A program made the position numbers and the translations under genes. 22,811 nucleotides of DNA, taken from NCBI GenBank assembly GCA_009781955.1, contig WQUT01000047.1:1-22811 (forward strand), given 5' to 3'. Under the pieces are notes generated by a model that worked only from the letters and a program-made list of their open reading frames with translations, made no database searches and was not told the DNA's origin. This document shows, in pieces, positions 616-17,051 of this stretch (position 1 is its first letter; each line of letters begins with the position of its first letter). Source of the stretch: Pseudomonadota bacterium (GTDB taxonomy: Bacteria > Pseudomonadota > Alphaproteobacteria > Rs-D84).

Positions 616-1365
616 ATGAATCTCACCGCGGAACTCTTTTACGAATTGGAACGGCGGCTACGGGCCATGGGAATGGATTCCGATGCTGAAAGTTTTGATA
701 CTATAAAGGCGCGATTGAGCAACAAAGAACCTTTGTCGCCGGATGATTTCGCGCGTCAGGCGATTTACGTAATCCTCGCCGGCGGGTTTTCGCAAAAGGC
801 CGCAAAAGCGATTCATAGAAAAATAATGAACGTTCTTGAACGGCCCAATGTAGGGGCAAAGAACCACCCACCAAAATCTGCGATTTTATCGGGGCCCGAT
901 AATTATTCGCCCCTACAAAGCGCGAGCCAAGAACAGGCATTATTCTCTGAACTTATAAACTTATTCAACAACAAAAACAAAATAAATGCGGTGGTAAAAA
1001 TTTGGTTGGGCCGCAAGAAATATCGCGACGATTATTATGCCCCGAAAGACAGCGATTTGGAAACAAAATTGAGCTATCTGTCCAAATTGCCCCATATTGG
1101 AAAAATAACCGCGAATCATCTGGCGCGGAATCTGGGCGAAGATGTTGTGAAATATGATATTTGGATCCAGCGGCTGGGCGTCGCATTCGCCGCCGGCGGC
1201 GAAGAATTGAAATCCAAAATAGACAACGGCAACCTGGATCCGGATGTGCGGGCGGCATGCGATAAAATGTTCGCGCATCTGGCGCGCGTTACCGGCCTGC
1301 CCCGCGGATACATTGACGTGGTGCTGTGGAAGGCATGCCAGAATCATATGATAGGGGGGATATAG
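616..1365 (+). CDS. Helix-hairpin-helix (HhH-GPD-like) DNA-glycosylase superfamily protein carrying an in-frame 67-bp repeat insertion
   Basis: A 249-aa ORF starting 22 nt after the HD gene. HhH-like segment LSKLPHIGKITANHLARNLGEDVVKYDIWIQRLG (hairpin G-x-G, followed by an Asp) and an N-terminal QAIYVILAGGFSQKAAKAI helix typical of the fold. Residues VGAKNHPPKSAILSGPDNYSPLQ are encoded by the repeat at 850..916. Confidence 0.5.
   Translation: MNLTAELFYELERRLRAMGMDSDAESFDTIKARLSNKEPLSPDDFARQAIYVILAGGFSQKAAKAIHRKIMNVLERPNVGAKNHPPKSAILSGPDNYSPLQSASQEQALFSELINLFNNKNKINAVVKIWLGRKKYRDDYYAPKDSDLETKLSYLSKLPHIGKITANHLARNLGEDVVKYDIWIQRLGVAFAAGGEELKSKIDNGNLDPDVRAACDKMFAHLARVTGLPRGYIDVVLWKACQNHMIGGI
850..916. 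repeat. 67-bp palindromic element (GTAGGGGCAAA ... TTCGCCCCTAC), copy 1, in-frame inside the CDS
   Basis: Near-identical to 2988..3054 (5 differences). The terminal arms equal the 28-bp perfect palindrome at 9820..9847. There is an internal hairpin AAAATC-tgc-GATTTT. Confidence 0.9.
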
Positions 1366-2987: not shown

Positions 2988-3054
2988 GTAGGGGCAAAGA
3001 ACCACCCACCGAAATCTGCGATTTCGTCGGGGCCCGGTAATTATTTGCCCCTAC
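2988..3054. repeat. 67-bp palindromic element, copy 2 (intergenic, 5 nt after the ung stop)
   Basis: gtaggggcaaagaaccacccaccgaaatctgcgatttcgtcggggcccggtaattatttgcccctac. The internal hairpin is GAAATC-tgc-GATTTC, a compensatory change relative to copy 1. Confidence 0.9.
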
Positions 3055-3099: not shown

Positions 3100-3173
3100 G
3101 CCCCAATAGTATAATGGTAGAACACGTCCTTGGTAAGGACGAGGCGCAAGTCCGATTCTTGCTTGGGGCACCA
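3100..3173 (+). tRNA. tRNA-Thr (anticodon GGU) with encoded CCA; atypical T-loop and D-stem
   Basis: Manual cloverleaf: acceptor GCCCCAA/TTGGGGC, discriminator A, CCA. Anticodon arm CGTCC-TTGGTAA-GGACG. T-arm GCAAG-TCCGATT-CTTGC. D-loop AATGGTA with GG. Oddities: C where U55 is expected, an A:A mismatch in the D-stem, and a 4-nt variable loop. Confidence 0.75.
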
Positions 3174-6570: not shown

Positions 6571-6596
6571 AACACGGGGCTTGGCCCCGCGTTTTG
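6571..6596 (+). terminator. Rho-independent terminator after aspS
   Basis: CGGGGC-ttg-GCCCCG (6575..6589) followed by a TTTT-containing tail. Confidence 0.7.
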
Positions 6597-6683
6597 ATTT
6601 AAGATTTATGATTTACGGATTTAAGATTTGTTTTAATATGAAAAGATTTAAATCTTAAATCAGCAAATCTTAAATCCTAAATT
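6596..6683. repeat. GATTTAA-word periodic inverted-repeat element, copy A
   Basis: Left arm gatttaa-gatttat-gatttac-ggatttaa-gatttg faces the right arm aaatc-ttaaatc-agc-aaatc-ttaaatc-ctaaat. It shares the exact 21-mer gatttacggatttaagatttg with 16981..17001. Confidence 0.85.
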
Positions 6684-9819: not shown

Positions 9820-9847
9820 GTAGGGGCAAATAATTATTTGCCCCTAC
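9820..9847. repeat. 28-bp perfect palindrome GTAGGGGCAAATAA|TTATTTGCCCCTAC (core-less form of the 67-bp element)
   Basis: An exact palindrome equal to the two terminal arms of the elements at 850 and 2988. It lies 12 nt upstream of the uvrB ATG. Confidence 0.9.
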
Positions 9848-9859
9848 AAGTTGGTTAAA

Positions 9860-11974
9860 ATGAATAAGAAAATTTTTGATCTTAAAAGCGACTATAAACC
9901 CACCGGCGACCAGCCGCGGGCTATACGCGAACTTGTGGGCGGCCTCCGCGCGGGCGAACGGTCCCAGGTTCTGCTGGGCGTCACCGGTTCGGGCAAGACG
10001 TTCACAATGGCGAACGTAATCGCCGAAATGGGCCGGCCCGCCCTAATTATGGCCCCGAACAAGATTCTGGCGGCGCAGCTTTATACCGAGATGAAGGGAT
10101 TCTTTCCGAACAACCATGTGGAATACTTTGTTTCTTACTATGATTATTACCAGCCCGAGGCCTATGTTCCCACAACCGACACCTATATAGACAAAGATGC
10201 GTCAATCAACGACCAGCTGGACCGCATGCGGCATTCCGCCACGCGCGCCATGCTGGAAGAACGCGACGTGGTCGTCGTCTCGTCCGTATCCAGCATTTAC
10301 GGATTGGGCTCGCCGGAAACATACTCGGAAATGAAGGCGACATTCGCGCCGGGCGATCGGGTCGGCATGCGCGATGTAATGCGCGGGCTGGTTGATTTGC
10401 AATACAAACGCAACGATATAGGATTCAATCGCGGCGAATTCCGCGTCCGCGGCGACAGTCTGGATATTTTCCCCAGCCACAGCCAAGACCGCGGCTGGAA
10501 AATGTCGTTCTTTGGCGACGAGGTTGAAGAGATTTGGGAATTTGATATTTTAACCGGGCAAAAAATACGGCGGCTTGAACGCGCGGTGGTGTATCCGAAT
10601 ACACATTACGCCACGCCGATGCCCAGCATTTTGCAGGCCTTGAATGAAATCCGCAGCGATCTGGGGCCGCGTCTGGAATATTTTCACGATAATATGAAGT
10701 ATATAGAAGAGCAGCGTCTGCGCGAGCGGACAAATTTTGACATAGAGATGATGGAGGCGACGGGCACATGCCGCGGGATAGAGAATTATTCGCGTTATCT
10801 GTCCGGGCGCCGTGCGGGCGATCCGCCGCCGACACTGTTTGAATATCTGCCCAAAGACGCTATTTTATTTGTGGACGAGTCGCACGTGTCGGTGCCGCAG
10901 ATTGGCGGAATGGCGCGCGGCGACCGCGTGCGCAAGGAAACGCTGGCCCAATACGGATTCCGTTTGCCCAGCGCGATAGACAACCGCCCGCTGACATTTG
11001 ACGAATGGGACAGATTCCGCCCGCAAACAATATTCGTGTCCGCTACGCCGGCGGATTGGGAATTGGAACAATCGCGCGGCATAGTCGCGGAACAGGTGAT
11101 ACGCCCGACCGGCCTCTTGGATCCGGTTTGCGAAGTGCGCCCGACAAAGAATCAGGTGGATGATTTGCTGGGAGAAATGATCCCCCTCCTGCGGAGGGGT
11201 GCCGCGCCTGTATTGCGCGGCGGGGAGGGTTTTGGATCACGCGAACCCTCCCAGTCAATTTTGCCCGCAAACAAGCGCGGCAAAATTGCCACCCCTCCAA
11301 AGGAGGGGAATCCAGGTCGCGTCCTTATCACCACTCTCACCAAAAAAATGGCAGAGCAATTGACGGACTATCTGACCGAAAACGGCGTCCGCGCGCGGTA
11401 TCTGCACAGCGATATTGAAACATTGGAGCGCATAGAATTGCTGCGAGAGCTGCGCATGGGAAAATTTGACGTCCTGGTCGGAATCAATCTGTTGCGCGAA
11501 GGGCTGGACATACCGGAATGCGAATTGGTCGCGATTATGGATGCGGACAAAGAGGGATTTCTGCGCAGCGCGCGTTCGCTGATCCAGACAATCGGCCGCG
11601 CCGCGCGGAATATAAACGGCCGCGTGATATTGTATGCGGATAAAATTACGGATTCCATGCGCGTGGCGTTGGATGAAACCGCGCGGCGCCGCGAAAAGCA
11701 AATGAAGTATAACGCCGAGCATAAAATCACGCCGCGCGGAATCGTGAAAACCATATTTGAAGAGGTGAAAGACCGCGGGGAAAGAACCGATAAAAAGCGT
11801 CAATTCGTTTATTCCAAGACCGGCGTTATGGATGCGGAATCTTTGAAAAAAGAAATAGCGAAACTGACGAAAGAAATGCGCCGCGCGGCCGAAGACCTGG
11901 AATTTGAACGCGCGGCAGGGCTCCGCGATACGGTGCATAAATTGGAAGACGATTTGTTATTGCTGGGGGGCTAA
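9860..11974 (+). CDS. uvrB: Excinuclease ABC subunit B, with an in-frame hairpin-array insertion
   Basis: [10 protein letters not shown], Walker [29 protein letters not shown], the helicase motifs, and the C-terminal [14 protein letters not shown] domain. I prefer ATG 9860 (MNKKIFDL) to the listed TTG 9851. Confidence 0.95.
11182..11308. repeat. About 127-bp array of five consecutive hairpins inserted in-frame in uvrB
   Basis: H1 CCCCTCC-tgc-GGAGGGG (11183..11199). H2 GCCGCGC-ctgtatt-GCGCGGC (11201..11221). H3 GGGAGGGTT-n12-AACCCTCCC (11223..11252). H4 AATTTTGCC..GGCAAAATT (11257..11287). H5 CCCCTCC-aaa-GGAGGGG (11292..11308). It is translated as ...[46 protein letters not shown]... Confidence 0.85.
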
Positions 11975-12487: not shown

Positions 12488-12745
12488 TACAAAAACCGCC
12501 AAAGAATTGGCGGTCGGGGAGTTCAAAAAATCATAGTAAAGAATGACCCCGCCAGTTTTTGTCCGCTTTCGCTTTCGCTGCAGCGCGACTGTTTTATAAC
12601 CGACGGCTCCCCGACCTTGTGGCGGGGCGTGCCGATAAAACAAAAGGCGCGTGCCGCGCCACAAGTTTATCGGGCGGATACGGCGCTTTTTATTGCGTCG
12701 CTTTACTATGGGCTTTTTGAAGGCCCCGAACCCAAATCCCTTTGG
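12488..12745 (-). ncRNA. Candidate structured RNA: riboswitch/attenuator-type leader or independent sRNA of unknown class
   Basis: Bounded by an extended -10 promoter and the terminator above. A 22-bp interrupted closing helix pairs 12701..12727 with 12516..12540. Two helices cross in pseudoknot topology: 12616..12624 with 12657..12665 (9 bp) and 12632..12639 with 12666..12673 (8 bp). Several pairings that involve the terminator arm are mutually exclusive. Confidence 0.45.
12489..12513 (-). terminator. Intrinsic terminator on the minus strand, about 20 nt upstream of the start of the 158-aa gene
   Basis: Minus-strand RNA reads CCGCCAA-uucu-UUGGCGG followed by UUUUUG (plus strand 12496..12513, with the A-run at 12491..12495). 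Confidence 0.75.
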
Positions 12746-12755
12746 ATTCCTACAA

Positions 12756-12805
12756 ATTATACCAATTTTTTTAAGATTTGCAAAACAATTTATTTTGGAT
12801 AGAAT
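12756..12805. promoter_or_regulatory. Back-to-back divergent promoters sharing one palindromic -35 hexamer (TTGCAA, 12778..12783)
   Basis: Minus strand: TTGCAA, 16 nt, then TGgTATAAT (hexamer 12761..12756, TG at 12764..12763). Plus strand: the same TTGCAA, 16 nt, then TAGAAT (12800..12805), leading to tsaE. Confidence 0.5.
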
Positions 12806-12814
12806 CCAAATATA

Positions 12815-13405
12815 ATGGATGTTCGGATGCAAGAAATTAAATTAAAAAATGTTGGCGAAACGCGGGCCTGGGCGGCGGAATTCGCAAAGACCCTGTGTGC
12901 GCCGTGCGTTGTTGCCCTGCACGGCGATCTGGGAATGGGCAAGTCAGAAATCGCGCGCAGCATTATTCAAACTCTCTGCGGCGCGGACACGGTGGTTCCC
13001 AGCCCGACGTTCACGCTGGTGCAGAGTTATGAATGCTCCGTCGCATGCCCCCCCTCTTGGGGGGGGCTGTCGCGCCGTAGCGATAGCGAAGGCAGACTGG
13101 GGGGGGCTACTTCCGAAAAAAATAGTAATAAAAAGTCATTAAATGAAGAAGTCCCCCCTCGTCGCCCTTTGGGCGACACTCCCCCCCACCGGGGCCCCCG
13201 CGCGACAGAGCGGATTTCCCATTTTGACCTATACCGCATTACTGATGCGTCGGAATTGGAAGAAATAGGCCTGGGCCATGCATGTGCGAATGATATTACC
13301 CTGATAGAATGGCCGGAAATCGCCGCCGGTTTTCTGCCCGCCAATACTATTCATATTTATTTGGAAGAATATGAAGGTGGCAGAAAATTGGAAATGACAG
13401 AATGA
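12815..13405 (+). CDS. tsaE: tRNA t6A37 threonylcarbamoyl-transfer protein TsaE (YjeE-type P-loop ATPase) with an in-frame insertion
   Basis: LHGDLGMGKSEIAR (Walker A), SPTFTLVQSYE, HFDLYRI and LIEWPE are the TsaE hallmarks. The 196 aa exceed the usual length of about 150-160 aa because of the insert at 13047..13208. The start could also be ATG 12827. Confidence 0.85.
   Translation: MDVRMQEIKLKNVGETRAWAAEFAKTLCAPCVVALHGDLGMGKSEIARSIIQTLCGADTVVPSPTFTLVQSYECSVACPPSWGGLSRRSDSEGRLGGATSEKNSNKKSLNEEVPPRRPLGDTPPHRGPRATERISHFDLYRITDASELEEIGLGHACANDITLIEWPEIAAGFLPANTIHIYLEEYEGGRKLEMTE
13047..13208. repeat. About 160-bp G-run/C-run nested-hairpin element inserted in-frame in tsaE
   Basis: GCCCCCCC-tctt-GGGGGGGC (13047..13067). 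Outer inverted repeat CTGTCGCGC (13067..13075) with GCGCGACAG (13200..13208). GGGGGG-ct-ACTTC with GAAGT-CCCCCC around an A-rich centre. GTCGCCC-ttt-GGGCGAC (13161..13177). Confidence 0.85.
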
Positions 13406-13508
13406 CAAAGTGACAGAGTGACAGAGTTATTGCAACCGCGCACAAAGTGCGCGGTTATTATTTGTTGCGGCTTTGCCGCAACACCACAACTCTGTCACTT
13501 TGTCACTC
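13392..13508. repeat. TGACA-octamer periodic inverted repeat enclosing two terminator hairpins (convergent tsaE / ftsA-rpe ends)
   Basis: Four TGACA at 8-nt period (13395, 13403, 13411, 13419) face two TGTCA (13493, 13501). Inner hairpins are AACCGCGCAC-aaa-GTGCGCGGTT (13434..13456) and GTTGCGGC-ttt-GCCGCAAC (13464..13482). Confidence 0.85.
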
Positions 13509-15287
13509 TTTGCGCAGCAAAGATTGCACCGCCAATGGAAAATCCGCGGCATTGGCCAGATACGACGCGGACGCCAGGAAATCCGCGCCCGCGGCCCAGC
13601 ATAGTTTCGCCGTCGCCGGATTGATTCCGCCATCCACGCTGATTTTGAAACACAACCCATATTTCCGCCGGGTATTGGCAAGCGTTGAAATCCGATACAC
13701 TGCATCCGGCAGGAATTCTTGCCCGTTCGGGCCGGGGCGTATAGACATCACCAGAATTTCATCAACCTCTTTTAATATCGGTTTCAATATTTCCAGCGGC
13801 GAATCCGGGTGCAGCGCGATTCCCGCCCGCTTTCCCAATTCGCGTATCTTTTTCAGCGCCGCCCGCGCGCCGTTCGTGCCGGTTGATATTATTATGGTAT
13901 CCGCCCCGGCCGCCGCCGCCTGTTCCGCCCAGATTATCGGGTTTTCGGTCATCAGGTGAACATTCAAATGAGCGTTTGTGTGTTCGCGGATAAAGCGAAG
14001 CTCGTCCATGCTGCCGGTTATTCTGTTCACATAAAATCCATCCATCACGTCGCAATGAATCATGCTGATGCCGCCGGATTCAAACAGCTTGTAAGTCGTG
14101 GGGCTGCGCATATTAAAACCCTGGGTGCTGGGCATAATCGGAATAAAGGCCGGCGTTTTCGCGATCTTTCTGCGGCGGAATATTTTGGGAAGCCAGGATA
14201 ACAATCTGCCCCATTTTTCCCGGCGGGCGACATAGTGTTTCGCGCGCGCCGCATCGTTCTGCCAGATTTGTTTGGCGCAGGCGGCGACGGCGGCGTCCGC
14301 CCCCAGATTATGAACGGGCAGCCCGAACATCTCGCCCGCCAGATTTTCTATTCCGGGTATATTCGTGCCGCCGCCGGAAATATAGACTGCTGACGGCCCG
14401 TATTTTTCTATGTGCCGCGCCAATTCTGCCCGCGCCAGTTCCATGATTTCGCGCAATGCGGGCAGGCCCGCGTCGCACACGTCGGCGCGCGACAATTCGT
14501 AACCGGCGTCCGCGACAGCGAATCTGTCCATTTCGCTGGATGCGGCGACAAGGCTGGCCACCTTTATCTTTTCCGCGTCGGGGAAAGGAATGCGCAGCCT
14601 GTCGGCTATATCGTTTGTGATTTTAATCTGGCCCATCGGGATCTTTGACAGCGACACGATGCCGCGCGCGGTCCAGCATGACACGGTTGTCCATGCCGCG
14701 CCCAGGTCAATGAAGACGGCGGGCGCGGCGGATTTGCGCGCGGCCATCCCGATAAGCACCGCCGGGTCAAAAAAGCCCGCCGATTCTATGTGCGCGGTGC
14801 GCAATACGGATTGCGCCGAATGCATGTCTTCGCGCGAATAAGAGATGACATGGAACACCGACGACAGGGCGCAATCGGTCTGGCCGACCGGCAGCGATAT
14901 GTTCTTGAATCCGGGGATGTCATAGCGCAGCGGGATTATATGCAGCGGCGCCTCGTTCGCGTTCTGCAAATCAAACAATATTTCGGAAATCTGTTTGCCG
15001 ATGTCGTTCGCGGAAATCTTGCGCGCGCCGCCCCATTCCGTCGTTTTATTGATTATCGCCGACCGCGCGAATCCGAAATCGCCGGTGACATAGGCCGATT
15101 CAAAATGCTTTCCAAGTTGGGATTCCAGCTCGTCAACCGCGGTTTTAAGGGCGAACGCGGTGTCGGGCGATTCGCAGATTTTCAGAACGCTCTGCGCGAC
15201 GCGGCCGCCGCGCACGCGAACGCCCAGCGCGCGGACCGCAGAGGATCCCAGATCAAGGCAAAGAAAAGACGAGTCAATCAGGTTCAT
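13503..15287 (-). CDS. ftsA: Cell-division protein FtsA fused in-frame to ribulose-phosphate 3-epimerase
   Basis: N-terminal roughly 370 aa: actin-fold FtsA (LCLDLGSSAVRALGV, VFIDLGAAWTTV, ITNDIADRL, YISGGGTNIPGI), ending in an amphipathic helix KWGRLLSWLPKIFRRRK. The frame then continues without a stop into an Rpe domain (IHCDVMDG, NVHLM, LVMSIRPG, ISVDGGI). I prefer ATG 15287 (MNLIDSS) to 15311, which lies in the repeat. Confidence 0.8.
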   Translation of the reverse strand: MNLIDSSFLCLDLGSSAVRALGVRVRGGRVAQSVLKICESPDTAFALKTAVDELESQLGKHFESAYVTGDFGFARSAIINKTTEWGGARKISANDIGKQISEILFDLQNANEAPLHIIPLRYDIPGFKNISLPVGQTDCALSSVFHVISYSREDMHSAQSVLRTAHIESAGFFDPAVLIGMAARKSAAPAVFIDLGAAWTTVSCWTARGIVSLSKIPMGQIKITNDIADRLRIPFPDAEKIKVASLVAASSEMDRFAVADAGYELSRADVCDAGLPALREIMELARAELARHIEKYGPSAVYISGGGTNIPGIENLAGEMFGLPVHNLGADAAVAACAKQIWQNDAARAKHYVARREKWGRLLSWLPKIFRRRKIAKTPAFIPIMPSTQGFNMRSPTTYKLFESGGISMIHCDVMDGFYVNRITGSMDELRFIREHTNAHLNVHLMTENPIIWAEQAAAAGADTIIISTGTNGARAALKKIRELGKRAGIALHPDSPLEILKPILKEVDEILVMSIRPGPNGQEFLPDAVYRISTLANTRRKYGLCFKISVDGGINPATAKLCWAAGADFLASASYLANAADFPLAVQSLLRKE

Positions 15288-15296
15288 GGTTAGGCG

Positions 15297-15339
15297 CTGG
15301 GCACTGGGCACTGGGCACTAGTTACTAGTGCCCAGTGCC
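15297..15339. repeat. CTGGGCA-heptamer hairpin between ftsQ and ftsA
   Basis: ctgggca x3, then ctagt|t|actag tgcccag tgcc. A 16-nt perfect inverted repeat pairs 15307..15322 with 15324..15339. The right end overlaps the ftsQ stop codon. Confidence 0.9.
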
Positions 15340-16028
15340 TATTTTACAAATGTTCTTTCCGGATCGCGCAGATCCAGGACGCGGATATCGCGGGCGAGGA
15401 TGTCGGTTTTCTTGTCCAGCTCGGCCAGTCTGCGGATCGCGCCCTCTGCGTTATTTTCCGGCAGTTTGACGATGACGCCGGAATTCAGCGCCAAGTCCCA
15501 CCGCCGCCCGTCGGTCCATTCCAGATAGTTCAATTCGGCCATGATTTTTGGCGCGCGCGTCACGGCGCCCGCTATGCCGCCCAGATCGTTCGGCAAATCC
15601 CCGCGAAAGACCAGCGAGTTTTCCGGCCTCTGCCCCGACGGGCGGTTTATTTTCGTCCCGTCGGCGCCGATTGGATAATAATGCGTTCCGTCCGTCCAGG
15701 CGGCGATCGCGGTCCGCATTTGGACCTTGATTTTCAGCGTCCCGTTCGGCATGCGGCGCACGGACGCCGCGTCTATGTCCGGAATGGCGGAAATCCGCGC
15801 CAATACGTCGCCCAATTTCACCCGGTAAGTCGGCGTGCGCGGGGAAATGCCGATGGCCGCGGCGATGGCGGATTTGTCCGCCGCGCCGTTTCGCGAAGAA
15901 ACCGAGATGGCCCGTATATCGGCAAAGCCGCCGCGCCCCATGACCAGCATGGTCAGCCGCACGGAAAGATAGGTCGCGATTATAATGGCGAATGCGAAAG
16001 CCGCCCAAAAAAGAAAGGTTTTTCTCAT
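15339..16028 (-). CDS. ftsQ: Cell-division protein FtsQ (POTRA domain)
   Basis: 229 aa with a single N-terminal TM segment (FLFWAAFAFAIIIATYLSV). It has a POTRA-like segment and lies immediately upstream of ftsA on the same strand. Confidence 0.75.
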   Translation of the reverse strand: MRKTFLFWAAFAFAIIIATYLSVRLTMLVMGRGGFADIRAISVSSRNGAADKSAIAAAIGISPRTPTYRVKLGDVLARISAIPDIDAASVRRMPNGTLKIKVQMRTAIAAWTDGTHYYPIGADGTKINRPSGQRPENSLVFRGDLPNDLGGIAGAVTRAPKIMAELNYLEWTDGRRWDLALNSGVIVKLPENNAEGAIRRLAELDKKTDILARDIRVLDLRDPERTFVK

Positions 16029-16530: not shown

Positions 16531-16636
16531 CCGGTGAATGGTAACTGGCGGCTGGTGATCCGTAATCGGAAACCATCTGGCGATATAAGTTATAATACCA
16601 ATCACCAGTCACCAGTTACCAACCACCAATCACTGC
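16531..16636. repeat. CACCAG-heptamer periodic inverted repeat in a divergent promoter region
   Basis: Left arm ccggtga-atggtaa-ctggcgg-ctggtga (16531..16558). Right arm tcaccag-tcaccag-ttaccaa-ccaccaa-tcactgc (16602..16636). The 43-nt spacer contains TATAAT (16591..16596). Confidence 0.8.
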
Positions 16637-16657: not shown

Positions 16658-16966
16658 ATGAACAATGTAAACAAATTCATACAGCTGGCGAATTTCTATA
16701 ACCAGATGCTGGCCGTCATGGCGGCCATATGCGTTCAAAAGGGCGGCATCCCGATAGAGCAATACGTCGGGCGATTCTTTGCCGCGGACGTTCTGGAATT
16801 CCTGGCCGAATACGGCGCAAAGCTGCAAACCGACGATGAGTCTGTCCAGCGCGTCGCCGCGCTGTTCAGGGCGGAATATGAAAAGGCGAAAGATCTGACC
16901 ACGCCCAGCCAAAAGCCGATATTTGAGATGACGCTGGAAGAATTTGAAAAAGTGATGAACATTTAG
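16658..16966 (+). CDS. Hypothetical protein (102 aa)
   Basis: GGGGGGAG lies 7 nt upstream of the ATG. No motif recognised. Confidence 0.55.
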   Translation: MNNVNKFIQLANFYNQMLAVMAAICVQKGGIPIEQYVGRFFAADVLEFLAEYGAKLQTDDESVQRVAALFRAEYEKAKDLTTPSQKPIFEMTLEEFEKVMNI

Positions 16967-17051
16967 GATTTAAGATTTAAGATTTACGGATTTAAGATTT
17001 GCGGATTTAAGATTTAAAAAATCAAAAATCATCGGTCTTAAATCTTAAATT
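16966..17051. repeat. GATTTAA-word periodic inverted-repeat element, copy B
   Basis: ggatttaa-gatttaa-gatttac-ggatttaa-gatttgc-ggatttaa-gattt faces aaaaatc-aaaaatc-atcggtc-ttaaatc-ttaaat. It starts at the stop codon of the upstream gene. Confidence 0.85.

What the first reader, a model, noticed from the sequence alone, without database searches (positions are those of the whole stretch)
13047..13208. tsaE carries an in-frame ~160-bp G-run/C-run nested-palindrome insertion
**Location.** TsaE/YjeE proteins are usually about 150-160 aa, and the SPTFTLV..Y strand is followed shortly by the HFDLYR motif. Here about 55 residues are inserted between them (CSVACPPSWGGLSRRSDSEGRLGGATSEKNSNKKSLNEEVPPRRPLGDTPPHRGPRATERIS).

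**DNA structure.** The insert is a nested palindrome:
- GCCCCCCC-tctt-GGGGGGGC.
- A 9-bp outer inverted repeat, CTGTCGCGC with GCGCGACAG.
- GGGGGG..ACTTC pairing with GAAGT-CCCCCC around an A-rich centre.
- GTCGCCC-ttt-GGGCGAC.

**Significance.** The reading frame stays open. This is the third conserved gene in about 23 kb with such an insert, so the density of coding-sequence colonisation is high. The 7-8-nt homopolymer G and C runs inside a CDS are also potential slippage sites.
Basis: partly seen in the sequence, partly recalled or inferred. Interest (0 to 1): 0.7.

Follow-up and report, generated by a model that had tools for sequence, protein, structure and literature searches.

The report
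Selfish palindromic DNA inside tsaE gene
An essential tRNA-modification gene (tsaE) of an uncultured termite-gut-type alphaproteobacterium carries an in-frame 177-bp copy of a hairpin-forming repeat that also sits in-frame in lpxB of the same genome. This is a Rickettsia-like case of selfish DNA being translated as part of proteins, seen here in a different bacterial lineage.

Summary
tsaE (12815-13405) is intact but split. Alignments to solved TsaE structures and to Pfam/NCBIfam models place about 57 extra residues between SPTFTLVQSY and ISHFDLYR. In 72 of 123 close homologues that turn is 2 residues long.

The insert is a 177-bp copy (13035-13211, slightly wider than reported) of a dispersed palindromic element. 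A 213-bp copy with perfect 11-bp terminal inverted repeats lies in-frame in lpxB on another contig of the same MAG (155 nt, 88% identical, no gaps, E 1e-52).

Both element lengths and both length differences between the copies are multiples of three. Both copies are read in the same one of only two stop-free frames.

The 22 substitutions between the copies never break a predicted base pair, and four pairs are doubly compensated. Most of them do change the peptide (12 nonsynonymous vs 4 synonymous codons). The constraint is therefore on the hairpins, not on the protein.

AlphaFold gives a confident TsaE core and a disordered insert. Related gut alphaproteobacterial MAGs carry unrelated palindromes or tandem repeats in the same turn. 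uvrB and ORF 616-1365 in the window also carry in-frame palindromes.

Best reading: an RPE-like selfish element tolerated in a permissive loop. The enzyme that moves it is unknown, no target-site duplication is seen, and slippage at the G/C runs is untested.

The parts
12815..13405 (+). tsaE coding sequence, 196 aa. Public annotation starts at 12827 (192 aa, MCL2331411.1).
   Evidence: ORF found. Pfam TsaE E 4.8e-28. NCBIfam TIGR00150 scores 82.4 against a cut-off of 60.1. All 50 invariant family columns are kept. The AlphaFold core matches 1htw_A and 6s84.
13035..13211 (+). 177-bp (59-codon) palindromic repeat element inserted in-frame. Its first base is codon position 2 of codon 74.
   Evidence: 155 nt are 88% identical, without gaps, to L098 2912-3066 inside lpxB of the same MAG, E 1e-52. 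The alignment with flanks defines the ends. DNA fold is -41.2 kcal/mol, z = -3.7.
13035..13044 (+). Left terminal inverted repeat, GCTCCGTCGC.
   Evidence: Identical to the left end of the lpxB copy (L098 2901-2910). It is the reverse complement of that copy's right end, CGCGACGGAGC.
13202..13211 (+). Right terminal inverted repeat, GCGACAGAGC. It has one mismatch to the complement of the left repeat.
   Evidence: Relative to the lpxB copy, 42 nt are missing just inside it, between CGCGAC direct repeats.
13047..13067 (+). Hairpin A: GCCCCCCC-tctt-GGGGGGGGC.
   Evidence: 8-bp perfect stem. The 23-nt string TGCCCCCCCTCTTGGGGGGGGCT recurs exactly in a separate mini-insert in lpxB, L098 3199-3221.
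13069..13097 (+). 'Module B' hairpin: GTCGCGCC-GTAGCGATAGCGAA-GGCAGAC.
   Evidence: 28 nt are identical in four unrelated low-GC metagenome contigs. Variants with covarying stems occur in related genomes and at window 12565-12593 on the minus strand.
13099..13158 (+). Central hairpin: G8-CTACTTC (13099-13113), an A-rich loop (13114-13147), and GAAGT-C6 (13148-13158).
   Evidence: In the lpxB copy the stem is a perfect 13 bp, GGGGGGGCTACTT/AAGTAGCCCCCCC.
13161..13177 (+). Hairpin F: GTCGCCC-ttt-GGGCGAC.
   Evidence: 7-bp perfect stem. The lpxB copy has GGCTGAC-ttc-GTCAGCC at the same place, so 4 of 7 pairs are changed on both sides and still pair.
13178..13201 (+). Right arm with the C7 run and CCGGGGCCCC.
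   Evidence: Pairs with the G runs of the left arm (pairs I3, I7, I17). 23 of 24 nt are identical to the lpxB copy.
12777..12805 (+). Promoter-like site upstream of tsaE.
   Evidence: Consensus scan, 9 of 12 matches. This is a consensus match only.
13434..13456 (+). Terminator-like hairpin downstream of tsaE, inside the intergenic palindrome 13399-13509.
   Evidence: No terminator-like site lies inside the insert.

Best explanation
Positions 13035-13211 are one copy of a small, non-autonomous, dispersed palindromic repeat. It has terminal inverted repeats and several internal GC-rich hairpins, and it has landed in the codons for the beta-hairpin turn between the SPTFT strand and the HFDLYR strand of TsaE.

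**Shown:**
- The element exists in at least two places in this genome, tsaE and lpxB, with no similarity in the flanks.
- Both copies are read through in the same stop-free frame.
- The copy lengths (177 and 213 nt) and the length differences between them (+6 and -42 nt) are all multiples of three.
- Sequence differences between the copies keep the hairpins but not the amino acids.
- The TsaE core and all its motifs are intact, and the inserted 59 residues are predicted to be a disordered loop.

**Inferred:**
- The element spreads as selfish DNA, moved in trans by an enzyme not identified here. A hairpin-recognising, single-strand type of transposase would fit the lack of target duplications.
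- In essential genes, only insertions survive that are in-frame, stop-free and in a surface turn that tolerates extra residues. That filter would explain why this particular turn has collected unrelated palindromes and tandem repeats in many related genomes.
- The translated peptide is a passenger with no function of its own.
For: **Insert relative to solved TsaE structures and family models.**

**The turn in relatives.** It is 2 aa in 72 and 6 aa in 19 of 123 close homologues. The window, at 61 aa, is the longest. About 50 species-level genomes read Q(N/S)YDG-ISHFDLYR.

**Second copy.** A 6-frame peptide search found only LpxB P0124. It belongs to the same MAG: locus-tag prefix FWC61, accessions MCL2331411 and MCL2331727. 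The DNA is 136/155 identical with no gaps, E 1e-52. The lpxB copy has perfect 11-nt terminal inverted repeats and spans 213 nt. Its fold is -65.3 kcal/mol, z = -8.0.

**Reading frames.** Only frames +0 and -0 are stop-free.

**Substitution pattern.** Of 22 substitutions, 11 are in unpaired columns, 8 are compensated, 3 keep a wobble pair and 0 break a pair. Differing codons are 4 synonymous and 12 nonsynonymous.

**Structure prediction.** AlphaFold gives core pLDDT 90-96 and insert pLDDT 45-54, with no secondary structure between strands 69-73 and 133-138. The core matches 1htw_A and the T. maritima TsaBDE complexes.

**Independent inserts at the same turn in relatives:**
- L083: a roughly 150-nt palindrome, z = -9.6.
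- L084: a 95-nt GTAGGGGC...GCCCCTAC element, z = -8.8.
- L086: arms made of heptamer repeats.
- L042: a hairpin.
- L003, L016 and L005: tandem repeats.

**Other in-frame palindromes in the window.** uvrB and ORF 616-1365. All of the window's palindromic repeat types except 12501-12742 have further copies in this genome.

**Published precedent.** RPEs in Rickettsia (PMC10969869, PMC3767692).
Against: - Only two full copies and one fragment were found in the roughly 46 kb of this genome that could be read.
- No further copy turned up in 1.4 Mb of related loci, in 1.84 billion representative proteins, or in the plasmid and phage collections. The family may be very small.
- No target-site duplication is visible at either copy.
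- No transposase or RAYT gene was seen in the accessible sequence.
- The consensus structure used to classify the substitutions was predicted from the same two sequences, so that test is partly circular.
- Function of the insert-bearing TsaE is inferred from conservation and a model, not measured.
Confidence: 0.8

Rival explanations
1. The palindrome was built in place, by tandem-repeat expansion plus hairpin-templated copying (template switching), and is not a mobile element.
For: The same turn in relatives holds pure tandem repeats: (GGCAAAT)x4 in L003, a repeated AATCAGA unit in L016 and a 12-mer x2 in L005. L086 holds a hairpin whose arms are heptamer repeats. Hairpin F is perfectly complementary in both copies despite four changed pairs, which palindrome-correcting copying would produce.
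Against: A 155-nt stretch is 88% identical, without gaps, inside an unrelated gene on another contig. It is bounded there by perfect 11-nt inverted repeats and shows no flanking similarity. In-place growth cannot explain that.
Confidence: 0.07
2. The extra 59 residues are an ordinary lineage-specific functional loop of TsaE that evolved as protein sequence.
For: The frame is open and the gene is otherwise well conserved.
Against: - The loop is absent from all relatives. The nearest relative (89% core identity) has a different palindrome at the same site.
- The same DNA occurs in lpxB.
- Differing codons between the copies are 12 nonsynonymous against 4 synonymous.
- The insert is predicted to be disordered.
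- Pfam finds no extra domain.
Confidence: 0.03
3. The insert is an assembly artefact, or the homopolymer lengths are wrong and the gene is really frameshifted.
For: The insert contains G/C runs of 6-8 (four of them 7-8 nt), which are error-prone in sequencing. The source is a metagenome assembly.
Against: - Two different assemblies give the same TsaE protein: a 56.3-kb ENA contig and a 23.1-kb JGI/NCBI contig.
- Both halves of TsaE continue in frame across the insert.
- The lpxB copy has the same two G8 runs and is also in frame.
Confidence: 0.03
4. The G/C runs make tsaE (and lpxB) phase-variable through slipped-strand mispairing, so the insert acts as an on/off switch.
For: Runs of 7-8 G or C inside a coding sequence are the classic substrate for slippage.
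Against: - There is no length difference in the G8 runs between the two copies or between the two assemblies.
- The only C-run difference between the copies is a substitution.
- By general knowledge, tsaE and lpxB are normally essential housekeeping genes, which makes them poor candidates for switching.
Confidence: 0.03
5. The element has been taken over by the host as a structured RNA signal inside the mRNA, for example for stability, translation pausing or RNase processing.
For: Hairpins are maintained between the copies. The structure is strong in the lpxB copy (z = -8.0).
Against: - No Rfam family matches; only sub-threshold generic hairpin hits appear.
- Relatives do without any insert.
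- Hairpin maintenance is equally expected for the element's own propagation.
Confidence: 0.04

Closest known systems
Rickettsia palindromic elements (RPE-1 to RPE-10; also Wolbachia palindromic elements)
   Same: - Short palindromic repeats in an alphaproteobacterium.
- Dispersed copies are found both between genes and inside unrelated housekeeping genes.
- Intragenic copies keep the reading frame, encode a family-specific peptide and sit in solvent-exposed parts of the proteins.
- Different elements can occupy the same site in orthologues.

Sources: PMC10969869 and PMC3767692, compared.
   Different: - The host's relatives are gut MAGs labelled Alphaproteobacteria, 'Rickettsiales bacterium' or Ca. 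Enterousia (order Rs-D84), not Rickettsia or Wolbachia (PMC12306168).
- The element is longer (177-213 nt against 100-150) and GC-rich, with G/C homopolymer stems.
- It is built of several separable small hairpins.
- Similarity to the RPE models could not be tested.
Bacterial MITEs (e.g. Correia/CREE, ERIC, Coxiella QMITE1, Anabaena MITEs)
   Same: The element is small, has terminal inverted repeats, carries no transposase gene and is multi-copy. It can create in-frame fusions with host ORFs (PMC10969869).
   Different: No target-site duplication is seen at either copy. No parent insertion sequence with the same ends was found in the accessible sequence. The interior is a chain of hairpins rather than a deleted transposase gene.
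REP/REPIN elements moved by RAYT transposases
   Same: Both are hairpin-based repeats that insert without target duplications and whose stems show compensatory changes (my own knowledge of the family). A neighbouring repeat family in this genome starts with GTAG (GTAGGGGC...GCCCCTAC), as many REPs do.
   Different: The tsaE element does not start with GTAG. It is 5-10 times longer than a REP and lies inside genes. No RAYT gene could be looked for in the whole genome.
Mobile GC clusters and double-hairpin elements of fungal mitochondrial genomes
   Same: GC-rich hairpin modules are scattered in a more AT-rich genome, and some are inserted in-frame in protein genes (my own knowledge; not checked in a paper here).
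   Different: These are organelle genomes with far shorter units. No sequence relationship was tested.

Membership tests
TsaE / YjeE (host gene) | Match to the curated family models above their cut-offs, with the P-loop and the SPTF and HxDxYR motifs present. | tested here: met
   Pfam PF02367 scores 98.1 bits against a cut-off of 26.6. TIGR00150 scores 82.4 against 60.1. GDLGMGKS, SPTFT, HFDLYR and IEWPE fall in invariant columns. The fold matches 1htw_A.
Rickettsia palindromic elements (RPE) | A palindromic repeat of about 100-150 bp able to form a stable hairpin. | tested here: met
   The copies are 177 and 213 nt, somewhat longer than the definition. DNA fold z-scores are -3.7 and -8.0.
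Rickettsia palindromic elements (RPE) | Dispersed copies, including in-frame copies inside unrelated ORFs at surface-exposed positions. | tested here: met
   Copies lie in tsaE and lpxB in the same frame. The insert forms a low-confidence loop between two strands of the model. Total copy number is unknown.
Rickettsia palindromic elements (RPE) | Sequence similarity to an RPE family consensus or HMM. | not testable with these tools
   No RPE models or sequences are available here. Rfam has no hit. The GC-rich composition makes homology unlikely, but that is an inference.
Rickettsia palindromic elements (RPE) | Host belongs to Rickettsia (or Wolbachia for WPEs). | tested here: not met
   The closest TsaE loci come from gut MAGs labelled Alphaproteobacteria, Rickettsiales bacterium or Ca. 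Enterousia. Ca. Enterousia is placed in order Rs-D84 (PMC12306168).
MITE | Terminal inverted repeats. | tested here: met
   GCTCCGTCGCG / CGCGACGGAGC are perfect in the lpxB copy. The tsaE copy matches 10 of 11 positions at each end.
MITE | Target-site duplication flanking each copy. | tested here: not met
   The flanks are ATGAAT|...|GGATTT in tsaE and TTGCGG|...|AAACCA in lpxB. No direct repeat is present.
MITE | Small size with no transposase gene. | tested here: met
   The copies are 177-213 nt. Translations in all six frames match nothing except the two host proteins.
MITE | A parent insertion sequence with the same ends in the genome. | not testable with these tools
   Only about 46 kb of this MAG could be read. 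The 11-mer occurs nowhere else in it.
REP / REPIN (RAYT-mobilised) | Short (20-40 nt) extragenic palindrome with a conserved 5' GTAG. | tested here: not met
   The element is 177-213 nt, lies inside genes and begins GCTCC. GTAG occurs only in the loop of internal module B.
REP / REPIN (RAYT-mobilised) | A RAYT (TnpA-REP) gene in the same genome. | not testable with these tools
None appears among the genes called on L001, L002 and L098.
Intein, intron or other excised insert | Hint/intein domain, or a group I/II intron RNA structure. | tested here: not met
   Pfam finds only TsaE. Rfam finds no intron family.

The most novel reading that the evidence does not exclude
Termite-gut relatives of the reduced-genome order Rs-D84 host their own radiation of modular hairpin elements, possibly still active and unrelated to RPEs. 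Small hairpin modules, such as the 29-nt GTCGCGCC-GTAGCGATAGCGAA-GGCrGAC unit, nest inside larger palindromes. Specific protein turns such as the TsaE Y-D/E|x-I-S turn would be true insertion hot spots rather than merely permissive sites. That would make this lineage a second natural system, besides Rickettsia, in which selfish DNA repeatedly writes new segments into essential proteins.
Probability: 0.3. Interest if true: 0.7.

Novelty: new member of a known kind. Interest (0 to 1): 0.55.

Why it matters
In-frame 'protein-coding palindromes' have been treated as a peculiarity of Rickettsia and Wolbachia. Here the same phenomenon appears in a different, gut-associated alphaproteobacterial lineage, with its own GC-rich repeat families.

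One turn of an essential protein has been hit repeatedly in related genomes. That offers a natural series of alleles for asking three questions:
- How do such elements choose or survive at their sites?
- What keeps their hairpins intact?
- Do the translated passengers ever become useful protein segments?

There is also a practical point. The inserts pull conserved genes below annotation cut-offs: lpxB of this MAG is annotated 'hypothetical'.

Tried and rejected
- **More copies in the organism's own contig.** BLAST of the insert against 32.5 kb found none.
- **More copies in related genomes.** BLAST against 1.4 Mb of 80 related tsaE loci gave only weak hits to the 29-nt module B.
- **Metagenome scan.** An exact scan with a 20-mer from the insert did not find the organism's own contig. 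It returned 7 chance hits in high-GC coding regions and 4 contigs that share only module B.
- **Genome collection.** It holds relatives but not this MAG.
- **Protein-level searches.** Peptide searches found only LpxB P0124. The second hit of the representative search, P0133, is an unrelated repeat protein.
- **Plasmid and phage collections.** No match.
- **Rfam.** Nothing above threshold.
- **Fetching the lpxB DNA.** The look-up through P0124 failed; it succeeded through its cluster mate P0125.
- **Extending the contig.** The look-up with ORF 81-593 failed.
- **Hairpin density.** A crude count of perfect hairpins did not single this genome out from its relatives, so I do not claim an exceptional overall hairpin density.
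- **Other readings considered and rejected.** I rejected intein, intron, integron attC site, CRISPR repeat and terminator. No T-run follows any hairpin inside the insert.
- **Minus-strand ORF.** ORF 13027-13344 is a by-product of the palindrome. Its frame was included in the query and matched nothing.

Full report
**What is at the coordinates**

The ORF 12815-13405 (+) encodes a 196-aa TsaE. Public annotation starts it at 12827 (192 aa, MCL2331411.1). Five of the window's eight G or C runs of 6 or more lie within 13048-13187. As single-stranded DNA the region folds at -43.1 kcal/mol against -31.9 +/- 3.5 for shuffles, and none of 200 shuffles folds as well.

**It is an insertion in a conserved protein**

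phmmer against solved structures aligns residues 31-74 to HI0065 34-76 and residues 132-194 to HI0065 79-142, so about 57 residues stand where HI0065 has two. Pfam TsaE and NCBIfam TIGR00150 both match in two stretches and both exceed their cut-offs.

Among 123 close homologues, the stretch between SPTFTLVQxY and ISHFDLYR is 2 residues in 72 and 6 residues in 19. A long tail follows, and the window (61 residues) is the extreme. In 80 species-level genomes about 50 read Q(N/S)YDG-ISHFDLYR. All 50 invariant columns of the family alignment, including GDLGMGKS, SPTFT, HFDLYR and IEWPE, are intact.

AlphaFold gives pLDDT 90-96 for the core and 45-54 for residues about 74-132, which have no secondary structure and sit between strands 69-73 and 133-138. 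The model's core matches 1htw_A and the T. maritima TsaBDE complexes.

**It is a copy of a dispersed repeat**

No second copy exists in 32.5 kb of the organism's own contig or in 1.4 Mb of related loci. A protein search with all six translations of the insert found one other protein, P0124. It is an LpxB homologue carrying SVAPSWGGLSRRSDSEGGLGGATSEKNSNNKS...HRGPRAT. Its accession (MCL2331727.1) and locus tag (FWC61_04280) place it in the same MAG as the window's genes (FWC61_02595, MCL2331411/12).

The lpxB DNA (L098, same ENA assembly) matches window 13052-13206 at 136/155 positions with no gaps, E 1e-52. Aligning both copies with their flanks gives these facts:
- The lpxB copy spans L098 2901-3113, which is 213 nt or 71 codons.
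- It has perfect 11-nt terminal inverted repeats, GCTCCGTCGCG and CGCGACGGAGC.
- The tsaE copy spans 13035-13211, which is 177 nt or 59 codons.
- Relative to the lpxB copy, the tsaE copy has 6 extra nt near the left end and lacks 42 nt near the right end, between CGCGAC direct repeats.
- Similarity stops at the element ends, and neither copy is flanked by a direct repeat.

The lpxB copy folds at -65.3 kcal/mol (z = -8.0) and the tsaE copy at -41.2 kcal/mol (z = -3.7). The tsaE copy therefore looks like a partly decayed derivative.

**Why the frame stays open**

Only two of the six frames of the element are free of stop codons. Both genic copies begin at codon position 2 and are read in the same frame. 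The two lengths and both length differences are multiples of three. This is what selection on essential host genes would leave behind; that step is an inference.

**What is conserved is the hairpin, not the peptide**

The two copies differ by 22 substitutions. Eleven lie in unpaired columns, eight form four doubly compensated pairs and three keep a wobble pair. None breaks a pair. The four compensated pairs all lie in hairpin F: GTCGCCC-ttt-GGGCGAC in tsaE against GGCTGAC-ttc-GTCAGCC in lpxB. In the reading frame, 12 differing codons change the amino acid and 4 do not.

One caveat applies: the structure was predicted from these same two sequences. Three causes remain open for the pattern in hairpin F:
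- selection on the hairpin for the element's own propagation;
- palindrome-correcting copying;
- exchange of a nested module.

**The element is modular**

- The 23-nt string TGCCCCCCCTCTTGGGGGGGGCT of hairpin A recurs exactly in a separate, shorter in-frame insert of lpxB (L098 3199-3250). There it is read in another frame.
- The 29-nt hairpin at 13069-13097 (GTCGCGCC-GTAGCGATAGCGAA-GGCAGAC) is identical over 28 nt in four unrelated low-GC metagenome contigs, where it lies inside a different repeat.
- Variants of that hairpin with covarying stems occur in related genomes and at window 12565-12593 on the minus strand.

**Surroundings and relatives**

The closest TsaE loci come from termite-gut and herbivore or human gut MAGs labelled Alphaproteobacteria, Rickettsiales bacterium or Ca. 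Enterousia. Enterousia belongs to order Rs-D84, whose members have reduced genomes (PMC12306168). The synteny asmA-uvrB-x-tsaE is shared with these relatives.

The same turn of TsaE carries unrelated inserts in relatives:

| Locus | Insert at the turn |
|---|---|
| L083 (nearest relative; 89% aa and 84% nt core identity) | palindrome of about 150 nt, z = -9.6 |
| L084 | 95-nt GTAGGGGC...GCCCCTAC element, z = -8.8 |
| L086 | hairpin with (GGGACTN)n / (CCCCAGT)n arms |
| L042 | hairpin that shares its right end with L083 |
| L003, L016, L005 | tandem 7-mers or 12-mers |

All insertion points fall within about 4 nt of one another, between the Y-D/E codons and the x-I-S codons. A filter for a permissive loop explains this most simply. 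A real target preference is not excluded.

Other genes in this genome also carry in-frame palindromes:
- uvrB has an in-frame insert of about 43 aa at residues 446-488, equal to the palindrome 11179-11312.
- ORF 616-1365 carries an in-frame GTAGGGGC...GCCCCTAC copy whose sisters at 2988-3054 and L098 13584-13650 are intergenic.
- lpxB holds at least three inserts and drops below its NCBIfam cut-off.

Seven of the eight palindromic repeat types I queried from the window have further copies in this genome; the one at 12501-12742 has none. A crude count of perfect hairpins per kb is not unusual compared with relatives.

**Transcription context**

A promoter-like site lies at 12777-12805 and a terminator-like hairpin at 13434-13456. 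No terminator-like site lies inside the insert. Rfam has no family for the insert.

**Comparison with what is known**

The behaviour matches Rickettsia palindromic elements. These are 100-150-bp palindromic repeats often found in-frame in unrelated genes, at solvent-exposed positions, sometimes with different elements at the same site in orthologues (PMC10969869, PMC3767692).

Membership in the RPE families is not established. The host is not Rickettsia or Wolbachia, the element is longer and GC-rich, and no RPE model was available to test. As a MITE it meets the criteria of terminal inverted repeats, small size and absence of a transposase gene, but it shows no target-site duplication. It does not fit REP/REPIN criteria, although a neighbouring repeat family begins with GTAG.

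I therefore file it as a new family of the known kind 'in-frame protein-coding palindromic repeats', in a new host lineage.

**What remains open**

- The mobilising enzyme.
- The genome-wide copy number.
- Whether the G/C runs ever slip. The only evidence is indirect: two assemblies give the identical protein, and both copies have the same G8 runs.
- Whether the insert-bearing TsaE is fully functional.

Noticed in passing
window 11179-11316 (inside uvrB, 9851-11974): uvrB carries an in-frame insert of about 43 aa (residues 446-488 relative to 9gy7_E). It is made of five consecutive small hairpins and is unrelated in sequence to the tsaE element. Its modules recur upstream of the window and in L098.
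   Followed up: partly
window 850-916, 2988-3054, 9820-9847; L098 13584-13650: A GTAGGGGC...GCCCCTAC repeat family (67 nt, plus a 28-nt short form). One copy is in-frame inside ORF 616-1365 and the others are intergenic. The same family fills the tsaE turn in a related genome (L084) and occurs in L003.
   Followed up: partly
window 6595-6682, 16961-17050, 15291-15341, 16533-16627, 13399-13509: Intergenic hairpins whose arms are short tandem repeats: heptamers GATTTAN and GGCACTG, and the octamer GACAGAGT. All have further copies in this genome. The one at 13399-13509 spans the stop codons of the convergent tsaE and ftsA-rpe ORFs and contains a terminator-like hairpin.
   Followed up: partly
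window 12504-12616 (-): Sub-threshold Rfam match to sRNA-Xcc1 (RF02221; 37.1 bits against a gathering score of 53; E 5e-5) in the spacer upstream of tsaE. Its first hairpin holds a variant of the 29-nt module that also sits in the tsaE element.
   Followed up: no
window 13069-13097; L087, L090, L095, L096; L013, L081, L084 15794-15918; L036/L039/L057: A 29-nt hairpin (GTCGCGCC-GTAGCGATAGCGAA-GGCrGAC) is identical over 28 nt in unrelated metagenome contigs. It appears with covarying stems in several related genomes, once nested in a GTAGGGGC element and once next to a tRNA gene. It may be a tiny mobile module in its own right.
   Followed up: partly
window 13503-15311 (-): A single 602-aa ORF joins an FtsA-type domain (residues 199-334) to a ribulose-phosphate 3-epimerase domain (residues 408-585). 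NCBI annotates it as a hypothetical protein.
   Followed up: no
L098 2246-3730 (lpxB of the same MAG): lpxB holds the 213-nt sister element, a 50-nt mini-element, an N-terminal palindromic insert (2385-2450) and a CACCAG-type repeat. It scores 182.9 against the NCBIfam cut-off of 190.25 and is annotated 'hypothetical protein'.
   Followed up: partly
L083 818-973 and L042 10208-10270: The tsaE-turn inserts of two different relatives share their right end (CCGGGATGACACCA). They may therefore be long and short forms of one family. [quoted passage not shown]
   Followed up: no
window 3100-3170 (+): A tRNA gene (Rfam, 63.1 bits) lies about 45 nt downstream of the GTAGGGGC element at 2988-3054.
   Followed up: no
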